Source: a virus. From it: 64,000 nt of DNA. The stretch lies in the IMG/VR virus record IMGVR_UViG_3300045988_137393; one strand, given 5' to 3'. The translations under genes and the position numbers were made by a program. This document shows, in pieces, positions 45,897 to 55,994 of this stretch; the stretch's first letter is position 1, and each line of letters opens with the position of its first letter. The notes beneath the pieces were generated by a model. It had not been told where the DNA came from and made no database searches. It saw only the letters and a list, made by a program, of their open reading frames with translations.

Positions 45897-46061
45897 CTAC
45901 TTAACATACTTATCTTCGATGTAACGCTTTCCACCACAAGTCTTGTAATATCCAATATGTTCGCCTCTGCGATCTACATATCCTCGTCTTGTGTTTCTAA
46001 TTATACCTTCGAATAATAATTTTTCAATTTCATTTTTTGAAATGTACTTAATAATTTTCAC
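45897..46061 (-). CDS. Possible small ORF (54 aa, GTG start)
   Basis: VKIIKYISKNEIEKLLFEGIIRNTRRGYVDRRGEHIGYYKTCGGKRYIEDKYVK. The RBS is weak, and the ORF falls below the track cutoff. Confidence 0.3.
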   Translation of the reverse strand: MKIIKYISKNEIEKLLFEGIIRNTRRGYVDRRGEHIGYYKTCGGKRYIEDKYVK

Positions 46062-46099
46062 TTCTTTCTTGATTTATTTCCTACAAAGTAGGATAGTAG

Positions 46100-46174
46100 T
46101 TGGAAATGTAGGATTTGAACCCACGACCTCCTGAACCCAAATCAGGCGTTCTAACCAAACTGAACTAATTCCCA
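46100..46174 (-). tRNA. tRNA-Pro (anticodon UGG), copy 2 (different sequence from copy 1)
   Basis: 75-nt cloverleaf TGGGAAT-TA-GTTC..GAAC-G-CCTGA-TTTGGGT-TCAGG-AGGTC-GTGGG-TTCAAAT-CCTAC-ATTTCCA-A. Confidence 0.8.
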
Positions 46175-46204
46175 AAATAAAAAATCCCATACCGAAGTAT
46201 GAGA
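46175..46204 (-). terminator. UUCG-capped rho-independent terminator ending the N2 RNA
   Basis: On the minus strand, UCUCAUAC-UUCG-GUAUGGGA is followed by UUUUUUAUUU. Confidence 0.75.
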
Positions 46205-47008
46205 TCCTTACTTAATATGAGCTGAGATATTTGACTCAATACACTAACACTTACTGTGGTTGGACACAGTTTATCACACAAGCGATTAGCTTGTAGTTAG
46301 CAACAACACCGATTTTGACATAATCGGCAAACTCTTACCACAAAGTATTATAGATTTTCTTTCTGCACATTCTTCCTTGCGAGATTCATAGGTTGCAGCC
46401 TATTAGAGTTGCACGTACTTGTACTTTCTCATATAACACCTTGCGAGTGCTATATGTCACCATATTACAGGTGAATAAGTTGTTTTTCTCTTTGCGGTCG
46501 CACACACTTTTGCTGTTTTGTAATTTTCTTTTAAATATTATTTACCTAAAATAATTTGATTTCTTTCAAAAGTATGTACTTATTATGGACGATGAGGTGT
46601 ACATTTGATCATCCGTACCTTTTGAGTACAGCCCAATCATCACCATCCTGCTCGGATTGCGATCTCCTTACTTTTTGATTCCATCCCTGTTTTTCAACTT
46701 AAGAGATATTACCAAAATCCTACCAGCGGTTATACTTGCGGTATTCCCACCAATAGTACACAAATCATACCCACATTTCTGTGTTACTACAGTGCCTATT
46801 TCAAGACACCCACCAATCAACCATATTCGCCAACAGTTGTCCTTGAATAGAAGGTTGGGCGTAGATTTTATGTGTTTTCCGTTAAACTGTATTTCACAGT
46901 CGCAGCCTTATAATACGATAAGAACCACTTTATACATGTCGCCATGCTTATTTTTGAGATTTAACATCTCCTGATCCGAAACCAACCAGTCCTACAAAAG
47001 TAGAAAAG
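46205..47008 (-). ncRNA. Large (~0.8 kb) ORF-free structured region between tRNA-Asn and tRNA-Pro (N2)
   Basis: No credible ORF; the track ORF 46657-46974 lacks an RBS. It is bounded by tRNA-Asn at the 5' side and its own terminator at the 3' side. On the minus strand, two CUC-GCAA-GG GNRA hairpins lie at 46375-46383 and 46439-46447. Confidence 0.55.
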
Positions 47009-47081
47009 CTCTCCCAGTAAGACTCGAACTTACGACTTTCGCATTAACAGTGCGATGCTCTACCAGCTGAGCTATAAGAGA
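47009..47081 (-). tRNA. tRNA-Asn (anticodon GUU)
   Basis: 73-nt cloverleaf TCTCTTA-TA-GCTC-AGCTGGTA-GAGC-A-TCGCA-CTGTTAA-TGCGA-AAGTC-GTAAG-TTCGAGT-CTTAC-TGGGAGA-G. Confidence 0.85.
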
Positions 47082-47756
47082 TTAAGAATTGTCAGTGACC
47101 ATACCACAGGAACTGTAGCACAGCCACCGATCTATAAGAAGAGGAGTACAATATGAATATGTACCAATCTTAGAAATGAACTTTAGAATTGTTCAGAACC
47201 GCCAATGAATTAGTAGCGATGGAATCTCTTAGATTTTATCAGTTCCCCAAATAAGCTGATTATCCGTAGGTTTACCAACCTAACATTAAAATTAGCATTT
47301 ATGGCTGCTTGCACCACATACATTGTCTCTATGGACTTTATTGCCTCAGTATGATACGAGATCTAAATCACTGTTCTGAATTTAATTTGTGTTATATTGT
47401 GTCCGTATAGAACGTTGTTCTAATGTCTTTCGACAATTATATATTCTCTGTTTTATCAGCCAAGAAAAGCTGATTTCATTGTGTTAGCCTTTCGGCACAG
47501 CCCTCAATCAAGAGGGCTTTTATTTTGTAGTAAAACACGTGTTGCATACTTTTATTCCGCATTTGCATATAAGCGGAGAGGATAGTTATGTTGGTATTGT
47601 ACGAAGTACACGCAAATTTACACTGTTATACATTGATAAAGCTTCATTGCCCACTTTCTCCTCATAAGTTCACTTAACTACAATCGTTGAAACCGTTGAT
47701 TTTACTAGCTTTTAGCAACACTAAAGCAATTAAGTCTGTACAAAAACTGTGCATTT
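47082..47756. ncRNA. ORF-free ~0.67 kb region between the RNAP-like gene and tRNA-Asn (N3), strand unresolved
   Basis: Only mini-ORFs of 6-19 codons occur on either strand. There are multiple hairpins and an internal plus-strand terminator. Confidence 0.4.
47499..47527 (+). terminator. Rho-independent terminator (plus strand) inside N3
   Basis: AGCCCTC(47499-47505)/GAGGGCT(47512-47518) followed by TTTTATTTT. Confidence 0.7.
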
Positions 47757-50366
47757 TTAACAGTTTTTTGAAAAACATTTTAGCAAATTTGATGAATTTA
47801 TACTGTATAATACCTTCATTAACAATGATTTATTTTTATTAAGGACAGAAGATATTGATTTTTGATTTCGAATTGAACCAGGAAGAATTTTAAAACAACG
47901 ATCAATCATCCAAGAAAACAACCCAAGATAATTCTTAGATATTTTAATTGATTTCACTTCATAAATCATGTCATCAAAATCTTTTCTAAGCAATAAATAA
48001 TCATCATTCTCTGCATCATCGTTTATTTCATATAATTTTAATGAATATTTTGCTATAATTTCCTCAACCTTTCTACAAGTACGAATATTACTTTTCATTT
48101 CATATTTAACAAAAAAATGACTCATTGGCAGAGTTGTATCTGTATTATGAAACTTCATTAAATCCAAATCGTATAAGTAATTCATAGGACATTTTAAACT
48201 TTCGTTTATGTATTTTTCATTAAAACCTCTTTTGATTATTTTCCAAAACGAAGGATAAAGATTTGTTTTAATATCCATATCATCTTTTATTCTTTTGATT
48301 TCACCAGTTAAGTCGATGTCGAATCTTCTCTTTGCGTTATCAATAGCGACTTGAGCCAAAACACTTAATATACATACATAGTCAACATACTTTTGGTCAT
48401 CAAAATTACATGCATATGTTTGAGCTATTTGAGCTAAGTTGCTTGATTCGCCAATATCCAACTGAGATTTTGCTAAATTATTGTCAATTCCAGCATAATC
48501 GTCCATTGATTTACCATATATATTTTTCTCTTTTGGAATGTTATTTTTGATGGTAGGATAATTTTGATAGCATTTTCTCGCATGTTCTACAATATCACAT
48601 TGATTTGTTGTATACCCACTATCGGAATCTTGATCACTTCCATTGTTTCTATCCTGAAAATCTGTACCATTCATATTTACTGCAACGCACTGTTTTCCAA
48701 GGTTAAAATATTTTTCAAGATTTTTATGGTATATATTGTGAAGATATGTAAGATTGTTTTTACTATTAAAAGGACTTCTAAAGAAAGCTAGATATTCACC
48801 ACTATTAAATCTTTCAGTGTAACATTGAATTGTATTGCTTTCAGCAAAAAATGTGTCATCATTATCAACGTCAGACTCATTTCCTGTGGCAGCATATAAA
48901 AGCATTGCATATGGAGATCCAACTATTACTAAATTTTCAGCATTTTGAATAATACGTCCACTTTTCATATTTAACACATATCCTTTAATAATAGCTTTTT
49001 TTCTGTCACGAAAATATGAACTCCTTACAAAATCTGGATTTTGATTACACAAAGCAATTAAAACTTCGTAATCATTTGAAAAGTTTTTATTCTTCTCAAG
49101 ATATTTCAAAAACTCAGAATTGTCTTGTTTGAGTTTATTGATATACTCAACACTTTCCTTTACAACATTTGGCATTATTTTTTCATCAAGAGAGTTTACC
49201 ATTTGGTAGCTCATTCTCTGAACTTCTCCAAGTTTACTTTCATGTGCAGTTTTCACAATACCAAACATACAGCCGTTTTCATAAACTCGATCACACCAAT
49301 ATTCATACGACTTATCAAATTTCAACCATTTCATAGCATTGTCAGTTGTGATCAATTCAATATCCTTAACAAAATGTTCTACTCCAAACATATCTTTTAC
49401 AGTAGCAGAATAGTAATTCTCTCCAAAATAGTCTTTGAAAAATTGCTGGATATTTGTGCTAAAAGCTGCCATTTTACAAAAATGATGTCGTAATAATATA
49501 TATCCATTTCCCCAACTTGGGAAGATACTAGAATCAATTAACGCCTGTCCGTCAAACATCGTGTTCTTCAACTCGTAATTATCAATGTGTTTTGCATAGC
49601 AATGTTTGTTTTCATCTGTCTCAATACTAACTACTTTAGTAAAAAATGATCTATCCACATCTTTTAATATTAAAATATTCTTGGGATTAATTTTGACTTT
49701 ACCAACGACGGCACTGGATATGAGAGGAGCATAAGCACTAATTTCGACTGTAGGAGAATTCCTTTTAGGAAGTCGAATGCCCATATACAAAAATTTAATT
49801 GCTTTTTTATAAAGGCGATCACATATAAACATACACGAGCCTTTTTTTGCTTTTCCTGTACTTCTGTAAAGCATTTTGTAATGAATAGTTTCTCGTTTTA
49901 TGATATCACCGTTTTTCTTTCTGGTAATATATTCAACATTTACACCTTCATTATAAAACAATGTTCTTATTTCTTCTTTTGTGTGTTTGTGATATTTGTC
50001 TTTGTTCTTATTTGCTTCCTGAAATAATTGTGAAAGTTTTTTACGTTTGTTCCTTTTCTTTTGAATCTGACTATTATAGCCATATGATTTTGCAAGCTTA
50101 TATTCAGTTCTCGCATCTCTTGCGACTTTTTGTAAATGTGAAATCTCTTCATCGTAAGAACGAGAACCAAAATTAAATTCCAAACAAATTAAATCTCGTG
50201 TAGATTCTTCTTTCCATACCTTTAATCCATTTTCATTTAAAAAGTCACTAAAAAGGCTATTGGTAAACATCGCATCTTTATACTCATAATGATCTCTGAC
50301 ACCATTATTATACTCATAAAGGGTGCTTGCTTCAATATTCTTTATTTTAATTCCATATTCACTCAT
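47757..50366 (-). CDS. Large early protein, candidate YonO-like single-subunit (two-barrel) RNA polymerase
   Basis: 869-aa ORF. The segment ...LAFFRSPFNS...AVNMNGTDFQDRNNGSDQDSDSGY ends in a DxDxD triad (DQDSD, 48621-48635). An RxP element precedes it, as in YonO and RdRP-type polymerases. This is motif-level evidence only. Confidence 0.4.
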   Translation of the reverse strand: MSEYGIKIKNIEASTLYEYNNGVRDHYEYKDAMFTNSLFSDFLNENGLKVWKEESTRDLICLEFNFGSRSYDEEISHLQKVARDARTEYKLAKSYGYNSQIQKKRNKRKKLSQLFQEANKNKDKYHKHTKEEIRTLFYNEGVNVEYITRKKNGDIIKRETIHYKMLYRSTGKAKKGSCMFICDRLYKKAIKFLYMGIRLPKRNSPTVEISAYAPLISSAVVGKVKINPKNILILKDVDRSFFTKVVSIETDENKHCYAKHIDNYELKNTMFDGQALIDSSIFPSWGNGYILLRHHFCKMAAFSTNIQQFFKDYFGENYYSATVKDMFGVEHFVKDIELITTDNAMKWLKFDKSYEYWCDRVYENGCMFGIVKTAHESKLGEVQRMSYQMVNSLDEKIMPNVVKESVEYINKLKQDNSEFLKYLEKNKNFSNDYEVLIALCNQNPDFVRSSYFRDRKKAIIKGYVLNMKSGRIIQNAENLVIVGSPYAMLLYAATGNESDVDNDDTFFAESNTIQCYTERFNSGEYLAFFRSPFNSKNNLTYLHNIYHKNLEKYFNLGKQCVAVNMNGTDFQDRNNGSDQDSDSGYTTNQCDIVEHARKCYQNYPTIKNNIPKEKNIYGKSMDDYAGIDNNLAKSQLDIGESSNLAQIAQTYACNFDDQKYVDYVCILSVLAQVAIDNAKRRFDIDLTGEIKRIKDDMDIKTNLYPSFWKIIKRGFNEKYINESLKCPMNYLYDLDLMKFHNTDTTLPMSHFFVKYEMKSNIRTCRKVEEIIAKYSLKLYEINDDAENDDYLLLRKDFDDMIYEVKSIKISKNYLGLFSWMIDRCFKILPGSIRNQKSISSVLNKNKSLLMKVLYSINSSNLLKCFSKNC

Positions 50367-52688: not shown

Positions 52689-52719
52689 TAAAAATTCCTC
52701 CTTTATAGGTGATATTTAT

Positions 52720-52739
52720 TTATTCTCCATCTGAAATTA
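52720..52739. repeat. 20-bp perfect direct repeat, copy 1 (TTATTCTCCATCTGAAATTA)
   Basis: Identical to 53011-53030. Confidence 0.95.
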
Positions 52740-53010
52740 AGTGGAAGAGAACCTTGCGAGCGTTCAGTAAAGTAGGTCTGAACCCCCACCTGTTTGTTTT
52801 ATTTTTGAAATTGGTAGGGGGTGAAACCCACTTTGCCGAACTGAAAGAAGATATATAACATTATTAATAAGATAGACTATTACGCTTGTATTTCGCTTAC
52901 GCTTCATACAAGCTCTTTAATTTTTTGTTTGATTGTTATTGGTTGATTTGGGTACATGGTGTTTTGGATTAATGGTTTCATTTGAGTACATGTGAGATCT
53001 ACCTATAGTG
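52740..53010 (-). other. 271-nt structured insert flanked by 20-bp direct repeats
   Basis: No ORF. On the minus strand it contains GCUUGUAU...AUACAAGC (8 bp), GUUCAG...CUGAAC (6 bp), ACCCCC/GGGGGU and a CUC-GCAA-GG hairpin (52752-52760). Confidence 0.5.
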
Positions 53011-53413
53011 TTATTCTCCATCTGAAATTATAATTCTGTTTCAAATTAACGTACTTCTCTGTGAAGATATTATCTACAAAAAATACTGGTAGCTTATCAT
53101 GATACATTTTATAAATTTCTTCACCTGATAAACTTATCCAAAAATTACTACCTATTTGTCTTTGTTTCTGCAATGTTTCGATTTCTTCCTGATATTTACT
53201 ATTTTTAATTATTCCTCCAATTTTTCCACAGATAGTACAGTAACTGCATAATGATGTATGAATACGTTCTTTTTATACGTTACTTTTAAAATTCCATTTA
53301 TATTGAATCAGACATTCTTCATAATGATGTTTGTGCTTTGATTTGCGGTTGCTCTTTGAGATATTACTTTCTGTTGACTTGAGATATTTTGGTATTTCGT
53401 TTTCATGTATCAT
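53003..53413 (-). pseudogene. Zinc-ribbon ORF interrupted by one in-frame TAA (53273-53275)
   Basis: RBS AAAGGAGG precedes the ATG at 53413. Reading gives 46 codons, then TAA, then 89 more in-frame codons with no start codon of their own (KERIHTSLCSYCTICGKIGG...). The His/Cys ligands are split across the stop. Confidence 0.55.
53011..53030. repeat. 20-bp perfect direct repeat, copy 2
   Basis: Identical to 52720-52739. It forms the last codons of the interrupted zinc-ribbon ORF. Confidence 0.95.
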
Positions 53414-55906: not shown

Positions 55907-55994
55907 AGTCGCATTGAGCAGGCTCAGTCTACGCTTTTTTAAGCGGTTGTGAATTAAGCACATTTGAGAAGTGGTTCGATTCCACTTGCGACTT
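55907..55994 (+). ncRNA. tRNA-like element A (88 nt): canonical acceptor and T arm, aberrant centre
   Basis: Acceptor AGTCGCA/TGCGACT (7 bp) and T arm AGTGG-TTCGATT-CCACT are canonical. The interior holds GAG-CAGG-CTC, CGCTT-TTTT-AAGCG and TGTG-AATTAAG-CACA hairpins in place of normal D and anticodon arms. Confidence 0.5.

What the first reader, a model, noticed from the sequence alone, without database searches (positions are those of the whole stretch)
46175..47008. A discrete ~0.8 kb non-coding RNA unit between tRNA-Asn and tRNA-Pro
This minus-strand interval has no credible ORF in any frame.
- Its upstream boundary is exactly the 3' end of tRNA-Asn, so RNase P/Z processing would define the 5' end.
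- Its downstream boundary is its own UUCG-capped terminator (46175-46204), just before tRNA-Pro.
- By eye it is richer in G+C than the coding flanks and is full of 5-8 bp helices.
- On the minus strand, two copies of the hairpin C(U)C-GCAA-GG lie at 46375-46383 and 46439-46447. This is a GNRA tetraloop with a bulged U. A third copy sits in the repeat-flanked element at 52752-52760.

Very large ornate RNAs (ROOL, GOLLD) are known to be encoded in Firmicutes phages and prophages next to tRNA genes. This locus fits that context, but I cannot match it to either consensus from memory. It may therefore be a new class.
Basis: partly seen in the sequence, partly recalled or inferred. Interest (0 to 1): 0.85.

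Follow-up and report, generated by a model that had tools for sequence, protein, structure and literature searches.

The report
Divergent GOLLD RNA in gut phage
The 0.8 kb gene-free stretch between two phage tRNA genes encodes a real, highly structured RNA, but it is a divergent member of the known GOLLD family of giant cage-forming phage RNAs and not a new class.

Summary
Window 46175-47008 (minus strand) has no conserved ORF. It runs from the 3' end of tRNA-Asn to a hairpin plus U-run just before tRNA-Pro, and it folds far better than shuffles (z = -5.4).

It is a GOLLD RNA.
- **3' half (46219-46648):** aligns end to end with Rfam RF02032 at E = 4.8e-28. The score is 104.5 bits, below the curated cut-off of 150, so standard annotation misses it.
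- **5' half:** carries the same four-hairpin start and junction motifs (AAAUAA / AUAAAGUGG / CUGCG) as the cryo-EM GOLLD env-38. I tested 20 viral loci found by that motif alone. Eighteen have a GOLLD 3' domain above the cut-off (243-323 bits). The other two are copies of the window's own type.
- **Homologues:** 119 full-length copies occur in viral metagenome contigs. In 43 representatives, 101 of 188 predicted pairs show compensatory changes, against 10-20 in shifted controls.

The RNA sits in a ~1.24 kb stretch missing from the closest relatives. In the same slot, downstream of a YonO-like RNA polymerase gene, other relatives carry ROOL, a canonical GOLLD, a homing-endonuclease-like ORF, or nothing.

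Verdict: real feature, new member of a known kind, moderate interest.

The parts
47009..47081 (-). tRNA-Asn (GTT), with no encoded CCA. Its 3' end defines the start of the unit.
   Evidence: ARAGORN; Rfam tRNA 68.7 bits. A same-strand tRNA lies directly upstream in 94 of 119 homologous copies: Asn 64, Met 25.
46991..47004 (-). Small tRNA-trailer hairpin CUAC-UUUU-GUAG, between the tRNA and GOLLD helix P1.
   Evidence: Minimum-free-energy fold. Present, with stem changes, in all aligned homologues. A near-identical hairpin CCUAC-UUU-GUAGG follows tRNA-Pro at 46080-46092.
46649..46992 (-). GOLLD 5' domain, about 345 nt. It has four leading hairpins, a multi-branch domain and three further hairpins.
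   Evidence: In 14 sequences: 85 pairs, 98% paired, 42 pairs with compensatory changes against 3-6 in shifted controls. In 43 representatives: 49 of 80 pairs. Hairpin order matches env-38.
46901..46953 (-). GOLLD 5'-domain signature: AAAUAA, a GNRA-capped hairpin, AUAAAGUGG, a hairpin, then CUGCG.
   Evidence: One match in the window and 0 in 100 shuffles. Of 20 viral loci found by this motif and tested, 18 carry an Rfam GOLLD 3' domain of 243-323 bits downstream on the same strand. The other two are window-type copies.
46219..46648 (-). GOLLD conserved 3' domain.
   Evidence: Rfam RF02032: 104.5 bits, E = 4.8e-28, model positions 1-416 of 416. In 14 sequences: 101 pairs, 98.4% paired, 40 pairs with compensatory changes against 1-6 in shifted controls. 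In 43 representatives: 45 of 95 pairs.
46517..46586 (-). Variable A/U-rich single-stranded linker after the first hairpin of the 3' domain. It corresponds to GOLLD J13/15, the disordered interior linker. It holds no tRNA here.
   Evidence: Length and sequence are not conserved in alignment A1, columns ~441-545. It aligns to the unpaired linker of the Rfam model. The linker's role in GOLLD is described in PMC12286853 and PMC12990946.
46439..46447 (-). First CUCGCAAGG hairpin loop. The full hairpin is RNA nt 553-579.
   Evidence: It aligns to the conserved 'ggcuCGCAAggcc' hairpin of the GOLLD model. The loop is invariant and the stem covaries in 84 unique copies.
46375..46383 (-). Second CUCGCAAGG hairpin loop.
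46175..46209 (-). Terminator-like hairpin with a UUCG loop, plus a U-run, ending next to tRNA-Pro.
   Evidence: Terminator scan. Loop and stem differ between homologues while pairing is kept; 6 of 11 pairs show compensatory changes.
46100..46174 (-). tRNA-Pro (TGG), directly downstream.
   Evidence: A same-strand tRNA lies directly downstream in 116 of 119 copies: Pro 53, Thr 20, Lys 20, Asn 15.
46178..47420 (-). About 1.24 kb variable stretch (leader, tRNA-Asn, GOLLD, terminator) that is not matched in three of the closest relatives.
   Evidence: blastn checks of L003, L008 and L036 show homology ending near 47421 (47410 in L036) and resuming at 46177-46182. These loci, and five more with the same layout, have polymerase proteins 93-96% identical and only tRNA-Pro after the polymerase gene.
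47436..47463 (-). Candidate sigma-70-like promoter, TTGGCT-16-TATAAT. This is a weak inference.
   Evidence: 10 of 12 consensus match. The number of such matches in the region does not exceed shuffles. It lies just upstream of the point where relatives diverge.
47757..50366 (-). Upstream neighbour: an 869-aa homologue of YonO-like single-subunit RNA polymerases. It serves as the synteny anchor.
   Evidence: tblastn hits include Enterocloster phage PMBT24, where the matching gene is annotated 'RNA-dependent RNA polymerase', and Clostridium phage c-st. 74 viral loci hold a homologue. The YonO naming rests on my own knowledge, not on a test here.

Best explanation
The interval encodes a GOLLD RNA of a divergent clade that is common in human-gut phage contigs. 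Two MAG contigs suggest Lachnospirales-type hosts.

**Shown here**
- It is a roughly 790-nt RNA with two domains. The 3' domain is homologous to Rfam RF02032. The 5' domain starts like the cryo-EM GOLLD env-38.
- Both domains are under strong selection to keep their base pairs.
- The RNA sits head to tail inside a same-strand tRNA array.
- It ends in a conserved hairpin followed by a U-run.

**Inferred**
- It is transcribed together with the tRNAs. A candidate promoter lies about 350 nt upstream of tRNA-Asn.
- Its 5' end is released by RNase Z cutting after the CCA-less tRNA-Asn.
- Its 3' end is set by the terminator hairpin, or, on read-through, by RNase P cutting at tRNA-Pro.

**Inferred by homology to the solved GOLLD structures (env-38 14-mer; S. 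agalactiae 12-mer)**
- The 3' domains form a ring held by loop-loop and A-minor contacts, and the 5' domains cap it.
- Two half-shells join into a hollow RNA-only cage, with the variable A/U-rich linker pointing inward.

What the cage does is unknown for the whole family. My best guess is that it acts during lytic growth as a self-assembling container or scaffold for translation-related cargo such as tRNAs or ribosomes. It is an accessory module, because near-identical phages lack it or carry ROOL in its place.
For: **3' domain**
- RF02032 aligns over its full length at E = 4.8e-28.

**5' domain**
- The junction motifs and four-hairpin order are those of env-38.
- The motif is absent from shuffles of the window.
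- 18 of 20 loci retrieved by the motif alone have a GOLLD 3' domain above the cut-off, beginning ~317-330 nt downstream. The other two are window-type copies.

**Structure**
- z = -5.4 for the single sequence.
- With 14 sequences: 42 of 85 pairs in the 5' half and 40 of 101 in the 3' half have compensatory changes, against 1-6 in shifted controls.
- With 43 representatives down to 59% identity: 101 of 188 pairs, against 10-20.
- Loops stay invariant while stems vary.
- No ORF is conserved.

**Context**
- Flanking same-strand tRNAs are found in 94 of 119 copies upstream and 116 of 119 downstream.
- Syntenic relatives carry a canonical GOLLD (172.6 and 189.9 bits) or ROOL (266-341 bits) in the same slot.

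**Literature**
- GOLLD has a conserved 3' domain, a variable 5' domain and a disordered linker, lies in phage tRNA arrays, and forms 10- to 14-mer cages (PMC12286853; PMC12990946).
Against: - The Rfam score (104.5 bits) is below the curated gathering score of 150. Four other copies of this clade also fail it.
- The hit disappears when the whole 64 kb window is searched, because of the speed filters.
- Reciprocal searches are weak. My narrow covariance models built from this clade find canonical GOLLDs only marginally: L002 at E = 0.04 and L067 at E = 0.62, each at the right place.
- A sequence-only profile does not find env-38 at all.
- The 5' domain is about 65-75 nt shorter than in canonical GOLLDs. 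I could not map its later helices onto P5-P12.
- Transcription, processing, assembly and function are all untested here.
- The promoter match is no better than chance.
Confidence: 0.9

Rival explanations
1. It is a new class of large ornate RNA, unrelated to GOLLD or ROOL, that merely shares their genomic context.
For: The score is below the Rfam gathering score, and the whole-window searches give no GOLLD hit. There is no DNA match in 50,697 deposited phage genomes. Sequence-only profiles do not reach env-38.
Against: The full-length match to the covariance model has E = 4.8e-28. The 5' signature is shared with env-38 and with 18 of 18 canonical GOLLDs tested. The two-domain layout, the variable linker and the size are the same. 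A canonical GOLLD occupies the same slot in related phages.
Confidence: 0.03
2. It is a decaying remnant of a GOLLD gene, a pseudogene kept only as spacer DNA in the tRNA array. That would explain the low Rfam score.
For: The bit score is low. The cassette is dispensable, being absent from close relatives. In L030 the GOLLD body is replaced by an HNH-like ORF after its first ~20 nt.
Against: There are 119 full-length copies, 84 of them unique and down to 59% identical, yet 98.8% of structure cells are paired and 101 pairs carry compensatory changes. Loops are invariant. This is the pattern of a functional RNA under purifying selection, not of decay.
Confidence: 0.03
3. It is a GOLLD homologue, but its working role is in cis for the tRNA operon, not as a free cage. 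For example, it could act as a processing platform, a decoy for RNase P/Z, or a transcription attenuator that sets how much of the downstream tRNA is made.
For: It is always wedged between same-strand tRNAs. A conserved terminator-like hairpin sits directly before the next tRNA. The same small trailer hairpin follows both flanking tRNAs. The literature notes a tRNA embedded in the linker of mycobacterial GOLLDs and proposes 'inhibited storage' (PMC12990946).
Against: The identities of the flanking tRNAs vary freely. ROOL, a different fold, substitutes in the same slot. Solved GOLLDs assemble into cages at nanomolar concentration without partners (PMC12286853). An 800-nt ornate fold is far more than an attenuator needs.
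Confidence: 0.15
4. The interval encodes a small protein: the 105-aa plus-strand ORF or a short minus-strand ORF.
For: An ORF at 46657-46974 (+) of 105 aa exists.
Against: It is not conserved in any of 13 homologues. Indels are not multiples of three. Substitutions preserve RNA pairs instead.
Confidence: 0.01

Closest known systems
GOLLD RNA (Rfam RF02032; Weinberg et al. 2009). Solved structures are the env-38 14-mer (PDB 9MEE) and the S. agalactiae 12-mer (PDB 9L0R).
   Same: - Full-length alignment to the 3'-domain model.
- Two-domain layout of about 800 nt.
- 5' start with the same hairpin order and the same AAAUAA / AUAAAGUGG / CUGCG junctions.
- Variable single-stranded linker after the first 3'-domain hairpin.
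- Many GNRA-type loops.
- The loop I take to be L21-like keeps a self-complementary GC core (UGCA in most copies).
- Encoded by a phage inside a tRNA array.
   Different: - The 3' domain is divergent enough to score 104.5 bits, below the cut-off of 150.
- The 5' domain is about 65-75 nt shorter between the signature and the 3' domain.
- A conserved terminator-like hairpin follows the 3' end.
- A small tRNA-trailer hairpin precedes P1.
- Oligomer number and assembly are unknown.
ROOL RNA (Rfam RF03087)
   Same: It is a large ornate cage-forming phage RNA next to tRNAs. In relatives of this phage it occupies the very same slot downstream of the polymerase gene (L001, L011, L032, L045, L056, L073 at 266-341 bits).
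   Different: There is no ROOL match in the interval even at E <= 10. Its sequence and secondary structure are different, and its 5' and 3' parts are intertwined where GOLLD has two separate domains.
GOLLD copies in Mycobacterium tRNA arrays (Morgado et al. 2020, as cited in PMC12990946)
   Same: GOLLD embedded in a tRNA array.
   Different: Some of those carry a tRNA inside the J13/15 linker. Here the linker is a plain A/U-rich stretch of about 70 nt, and the tRNAs lie outside the RNA.

Membership tests
GOLLD RNA (RF02032) | Statistically significant, full-length, same-strand alignment of the conserved 3' domain to the family covariance model. | tested here: met
   104.5 bits, E = 4.8e-28, model positions 1-416 of 416, window 46219-46648(-).
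GOLLD RNA (RF02032) | Score at or above Rfam's curated gathering score of 150 bits. This is an operational annotation cut-off, not a biological feature. | tested here: not met
   104.5 bits is below 150. There is no hit in gathering mode. Four other copies of the clade (L033, L066, L027, L102) also fail, while canonical copies in L002 and L067 pass at 172.6 and 189.9 bits.
GOLLD RNA (RF02032) | The helices of the 3' domain are maintained by covariation. | tested here: met
   With 14 sequences: 101 pairs, 98.4% paired, 40 pairs with changes on both sides against 1-6 in shifted controls. With 43 representatives: 45 of 95 pairs. The predicted helices coincide with those of the Rfam alignment.
GOLLD RNA (RF02032) | A separate, less conserved 5' domain of about 350-420 nt whose start (leading hairpins and their junctions) is shared with canonical GOLLDs. 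| tested here: met
   The first four hairpins and the junctions AAAUAA / AUAAAGUGG / CUGCG are shared with env-38. The motif gives 0 hits in shuffles. 18 of 20 motif-selected loci hold a GOLLD of 243-323 bits and the remaining 2 are window-type. The later helices could not be mapped to P5-P12.
GOLLD RNA (RF02032) | A variable, unstructured linker (J13/15) after the first hairpin of the 3' domain. | tested here: met
   A1 columns ~441-545 vary in length and sequence and are A/U-rich. They align to the unpaired linker of the model.
GOLLD RNA (RF02032) | Encoded in a phage or prophage, near or within a tRNA cluster. | tested here: met
   Seven tRNA calls in the window. Flanking same-strand tRNAs in 94 of 119 copies upstream and 116 of 119 downstream. 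The copies lie on IMG/VR viral contigs, most of those listed 80-180 kb long.
GOLLD RNA (RF02032) | Self-assembly into a dihedral RNA-only cage of 10 to 14 subunits. | not testable with these tools
   Known for env-38 and S. agalactiae GOLLD (PMC12286853; PMC12990946). Here I can only note that loops are invariant and that the L21-like loop keeps a palindromic GC or UGCA core.
GOLLD RNA (RF02032) | Expression as a discrete RNA that rises during phage lytic growth. | not testable with these tools
   No expression data are available for this metagenomic phage.
ROOL RNA (RF03087) | Match to the ROOL covariance model. | tested here: not met
   No ROOL hit at E <= 10 in 45900-47300 on either strand. 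The same tool finds ROOL at 266-341 bits in related loci.
Group I/II introns, RNase P RNA, tmRNA | Match to the corresponding Rfam models. | tested here: not met
   No such hits at E <= 10 in the interval. ARAGORN finds no tmRNA.

The most novel reading that the evidence does not exclude
In one lineage of large gut phages, GOLLD (two clades) and ROOL are interchangeable accessory cassettes. They plug into the same tRNA-array slot just downstream of the phage's own YonO-like RNA polymerase gene. That would mean the two unrelated cage-forming RNAs do the same job. In addition, the window's clade, with its shortened 5' cap, may build a cage with a subunit number different from the known 12- and 14-mers.
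Probability: 0.45. Interest if true: 0.55.

Novelty: new member of a known kind. Interest (0 to 1): 0.38.

Why it matters
GOLLD is one of very few natural RNAs known to build a protein-free cage larger than a ribosome, and its function is still unknown.

- **An overlooked clade.** A whole clade escapes Rfam's cut-off. I recovered 119 full-length copies (84 unique) from viral metagenome contigs; the contigs that share the window's polymerase gene are related to phage sequences from human faeces. GOLLD is therefore more common in these phages than current annotation suggests.
- **A natural swap experiment.** Near-identical phages carry this GOLLD, a canonical GOLLD, ROOL, a homing-endonuclease-like ORF or nothing at one locus. 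This supports the old guess that GOLLD and ROOL are functional analogues. It also gives matched pairs for comparative or experimental work.
- **Structure work.** The shortened 5' domain is a ready test case for how the cap sets the number of subunits.

Tried and rejected
- **Rfam on the whole window.** Both the gathering mode and the E-value mode returned only tRNAs. The GOLLD hit appears only when about 1.4 kb is searched, so the speed filters hide it.
- **BLAST against deposited phage genomes.** blastn of the interval and megablast of 20 kb against 50,697 genomes gave no match.
- **Sequence-only profiles.** nhmmer profiles of my alignments against env-38 plus 2,000 shuffles found nothing, not even for the 3' domain. 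The method has no power at this distance.
- **My own covariance models.** R1 (5' start, 107 positions) and R2 (3' core, 182 positions) recover only the window's clade with default filters. With filters off, R2's best hit in L002 falls inside its Rfam GOLLD but only at E = 0.04. R1 touches the start of the L067 GOLLD at E = 0.62. I treat both as weak support only.
- **Third CTCGCAAGG copy (52752-52760).** It lies in a ~290-nt element flanked by 19-nt direct repeats. A lax Rfam search found nothing credible there. Once the two GOLLD copies are explained by family consensus, one extra copy has roughly a 6% chance. I do not link it to the GOLLD.
- **Protein-coding reading.** Rejected, because no ORF is conserved.
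- **Mapping to the cryo-EM numbering.** The env-38 sequence recovered from the PDF text is 816 of 833 nt. Residue-level statements such as nt 656-657 could therefore not be transferred.
- **5'-domain helix names.** A consensus fold of 16 canonical 5' domains was too rough to name the helices the window's clade lacks.

Full report
**1. Observation**

The interval 46175-47008 is exactly the spacer between tRNA-Asn (47008/9-47081) and tRNA-Pro (46099/100-46174), both on the minus strand.
- The longest minus-strand ORF is 50 aa. A 105-aa ORF on the opposite strand is not conserved in any of 13 homologues.
- A terminator-like hairpin with a UUCG loop and a U-run lies at 46209-46175.
- G+C is 36.9%, against 33.1% for the window and 29-32% for the neighbouring genes.
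- The RNA folds at -235 kcal/mol against -190 +/- 8 for shuffles, z = -5.4.
- The 9-mer CTCGCAAGG occurs at the three stated places, with 0.06 copies expected by chance.

**2. Identity of the 3' half**

A whole-window Rfam search shows only tRNAs, in both gathering and E-value modes. When only 45900-47300 is searched, the GOLLD model RF02032 aligns over all 416 positions to 46219-46648 on the minus strand. The score is 104.5 bits and E = 4.8e-28.

That score is below Rfam's gathering score of 150, which is why routine annotation misses the RNA. No ROOL, intron, RNase P or tmRNA model matches the interval at E <= 10.

**3. Homologues and covariation**

No deposited phage genome matches at the DNA level. 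The upstream gene (47757-50366) encodes an 869-aa homologue of YonO-like single-subunit RNA polymerases. Using it as an anchor retrieved 74 IMG/VR loci. Eighteen of them carry homologues of both halves of the RNA in the same position.
- **14 distinct sequences (A1).** RNAalifold predicts 199 pairs, 86 with compensatory changes.
- **Counted by half.** The 5' half has 85 pairs, 98% paired, with 42 pairs changed on both sides against 3-6 when partners are slid. The 3' half has 101 pairs, 98.4% paired, with 40 against 1-6.
- **Wider sampling.** A 31-nt pattern from the 3' core found at least 118 further viral contigs. It also found two MAG contigs labelled Anaerotignum and Lachnospira.
- **Totals.** There are 119 full-length copies, 84 unique, and 43 representatives below 96% identity that go down to 59%.
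- **43 representatives.** 188 pairs, 98.8% paired, 101 with compensatory changes against 10-20 in shifted controls. This includes the terminator hairpin, with 6 of 11 pairs.
- **Loops.** They are nearly invariant while stems vary.

This is a functional structured RNA across its whole length.

**4. The 5' half is also GOLLD**

The sequence of the cryo-EM construct env-38 is given in the supplement of Kretsch et al. 2025 (PMC12286853). Its first ~110 nt and window RNA nt 17-137 share one plan: a P1 hairpin, AAAUAA, a GNRA-capped hairpin, AUAAAGUGG, a hairpin, CUGCG, then another GNRA-capped hairpin. Independent minimum-free-energy folds of the two give the same order of hairpins.

The pattern AAATAA-N8-20-ATAAAGTGG-N12-32-CTGCG hits the window once (46901-46953) and never in 100 shuffles. 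It hits at least 120 IMG/VR contigs from many environments. I tested 20 of those loci with Rfam at gathering threshold.
- Eighteen have a GOLLD 3' domain of 243-323 bits on the same strand, starting ~317-330 nt after the motif.
- The two without are copies of the window's own clade.

In the window the 3' domain starts 253 nt after the motif. Its 5' domain is therefore about 65-75 nt shorter. A variable 5' domain is a known property of GOLLD (PMC12286853; PMC12990946).

**5. Context**
- **tRNA flanks.** Every aligned copy follows a same-strand tRNA by 4-7 nt plus a small hairpin. Every copy ends in a hairpin and U-run a few nt before the next tRNA. Across 119 copies the upstream tRNA is Asn (64) or Met (25). 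The downstream tRNA is Pro (53), Thr (20), Lys (20) or Asn (15). A near-identical trailer hairpin follows both flanking tRNAs in the window, but not the other four tRNAs.
- **Dispensable stretch.** Eight loci whose polymerase is 93-96% identical (L003, L004, L006-L008, L013, L036, L037) have only tRNA-Pro after the polymerase gene. In the three I checked by blastn (L003, L008, L036), homology stops near 47421 (47410 in L036) and resumes at 46177-46182. This defines a ~1.24 kb variable stretch.
- **Alternative occupants of the slot.**
  - ROOL is confirmed by Rfam in L001, L011, L032, L045, L056 and L073 at 266-341 bits.
  - ROOL is supported by nhmmer only in L012, L057-L059 and L075.
  - A canonical GOLLD sits in L002 and L067 at 172.6 and 189.9 bits.
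  - L030 has a 229-aa HNH-like ORF that begins after the first ~20 nt of the GOLLD.
- **Whole clade below cut-off.** Four other copies of the window's clade also fail the Rfam gathering score.

**6. How it most likely works**

Shown: the fold, the two domains, the tRNA-array setting and the terminator-like 3' hairpin.

Inferred:
- The RNA is co-transcribed with the tRNAs. The only promoter-like site, TTGGCT-16-TATAAT at 47463-47436, is no better than chance.
- RNase Z cuts behind the CCA-less tRNA-Asn and makes the 5' end.
- The hairpin and U-run terminate transcription or protect the 3' end. On read-through, RNase P cutting at tRNA-Pro would make the 3' end.

By homology with the solved GOLLDs, the 3' domains should form a ring through loop-loop and A-minor contacts and the 5' domains should form a cap. 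Two half-shells would close into a hollow cage with the A/U-rich linker inside (PMC12286853; PMC12990946). The number of subunits cannot be predicted; known values are 10, 12 and 14. The biological role is unknown for the family. I favour a container or scaffold for translation-related cargo during lytic growth. A cis role in tRNA processing or attenuation is the main alternative.

**7. Comparison and novelty**

This is a member of the GOLLD family. Every biological hallmark I could test is met. Only the curated score cut-off is not. It is not a new class.

What is new:
- a sub-threshold clade that is abundant in viral metagenome contigs, with a shortened 5' domain;
- the observation that GOLLD, ROOL or nothing occupy one syntenic slot in closely related phages.

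The similar contexts of GOLLD and ROOL were already noted by Weinberg et al. 2017 (PMC5737381).

**8. Dead ends**
- Sequence-only profiles do not reach env-38.
- My narrow covariance models find canonical GOLLDs only marginally.
- The third CTCGCAAGG copy lies in an unrelated repeat-flanked element with no Rfam match.
- The env-38 text copy lacks about 17 nt, so residue numbers from the structure paper could not be transferred.
- The helices missing from the 5' domain could not be named.

**9. Verdict**

This is a real feature and a correct observation. Classification: new member of a known kind. Interest: 0.38.

Noticed in passing
Window 46178-47420, compared with L001-L076: The slot just downstream of the YonO-like polymerase gene holds different things in related phages. 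It holds this GOLLD clade in 18 loci, a canonical GOLLD in L002 and L067, ROOL in 11 loci (six confirmed by Rfam at 266-341 bits), and only a tRNA in the closest relatives.
   Followed up: partly
L030:10138-11133: After the same tRNA-Met, trailer hairpin and first ~20 nt of the GOLLD (TCCTACTTCGGTAGGCGGTC), the RNA is replaced by a 229-aa HNH-like ORF. This may be a homing-endonuclease replacement of the GOLLD body.
   Followed up: no
Window 52717-53025 (-): A ~290-nt element is flanked by the 19-nt direct repeat AATTTCAGATGGAGAATAA. It contains a long hairpin (~52762-52841) and the third CTCGCAAGG copy. It has no credible Rfam match, and its pieces are scattered mosaically among related loci.
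   Followed up: partly
Window 47421-47756 (-): About 340 nt of ORF-free sequence after the polymerase stop codon is ~90% identical in relatives, whether or not they carry the GOLLD. It contains a hairpin (47499-47518) and the promoter-like site. It may be a conserved terminator and promoter region or another small RNA.
   Followed up: no
Window 46080-46092 and 46991-47004 (-): Near-identical small hairpins (CCUAC-UUU-GUAGG and CUAC-UUUU-GUAG) follow tRNA-Pro and tRNA-Asn, but not the other four tRNAs of the window. They could be processing signals or the recombination joints of the cassette.
   Followed up: partly
L001:4743-5525; L036, L037, L044, L068 and others: The polymerase gene of some relatives is interrupted. 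Rfam finds a group I intron (77 bits, plus a weaker second hit) inside the L001 match. Several loci have a match ~1.2 kb longer than the window's uninterrupted 2.6 kb gene.
   Followed up: no
L031:733-802(-); L033:232-307(-); L032:9581-9816(+): Related phage loci carry a Pistol ribozyme (69.7 bits), a type-P5 twister ribozyme (49.8 bits) and a HEARO RNA (121 bits). This phage lineage is unusually rich in structured RNAs.
   Followed up: no
Window 55907-55994 (+): ARAGORN reports an 88-nt tRNA-like gene with an undetermined anticodon. Rfam's tRNA model does not report it at gathering threshold.
   Followed up: no
Window 46219-46648; method note: A 104.5-bit GOLLD match is lost when the full 64 kb window is searched, even in E-value mode. 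Other sub-threshold structured RNAs in this window could be hidden in the same way.
   Followed up: partly
L005 and L068, upstream of their GOLLD copies: The tRNA preceding the GOLLD in these loci has an anticodon loop that ARAGORN cannot assign ('tRNA-???'). In L019, L020, L022 and L060 a tRNA-Met-like sequence upstream is not called at all.
   Followed up: no
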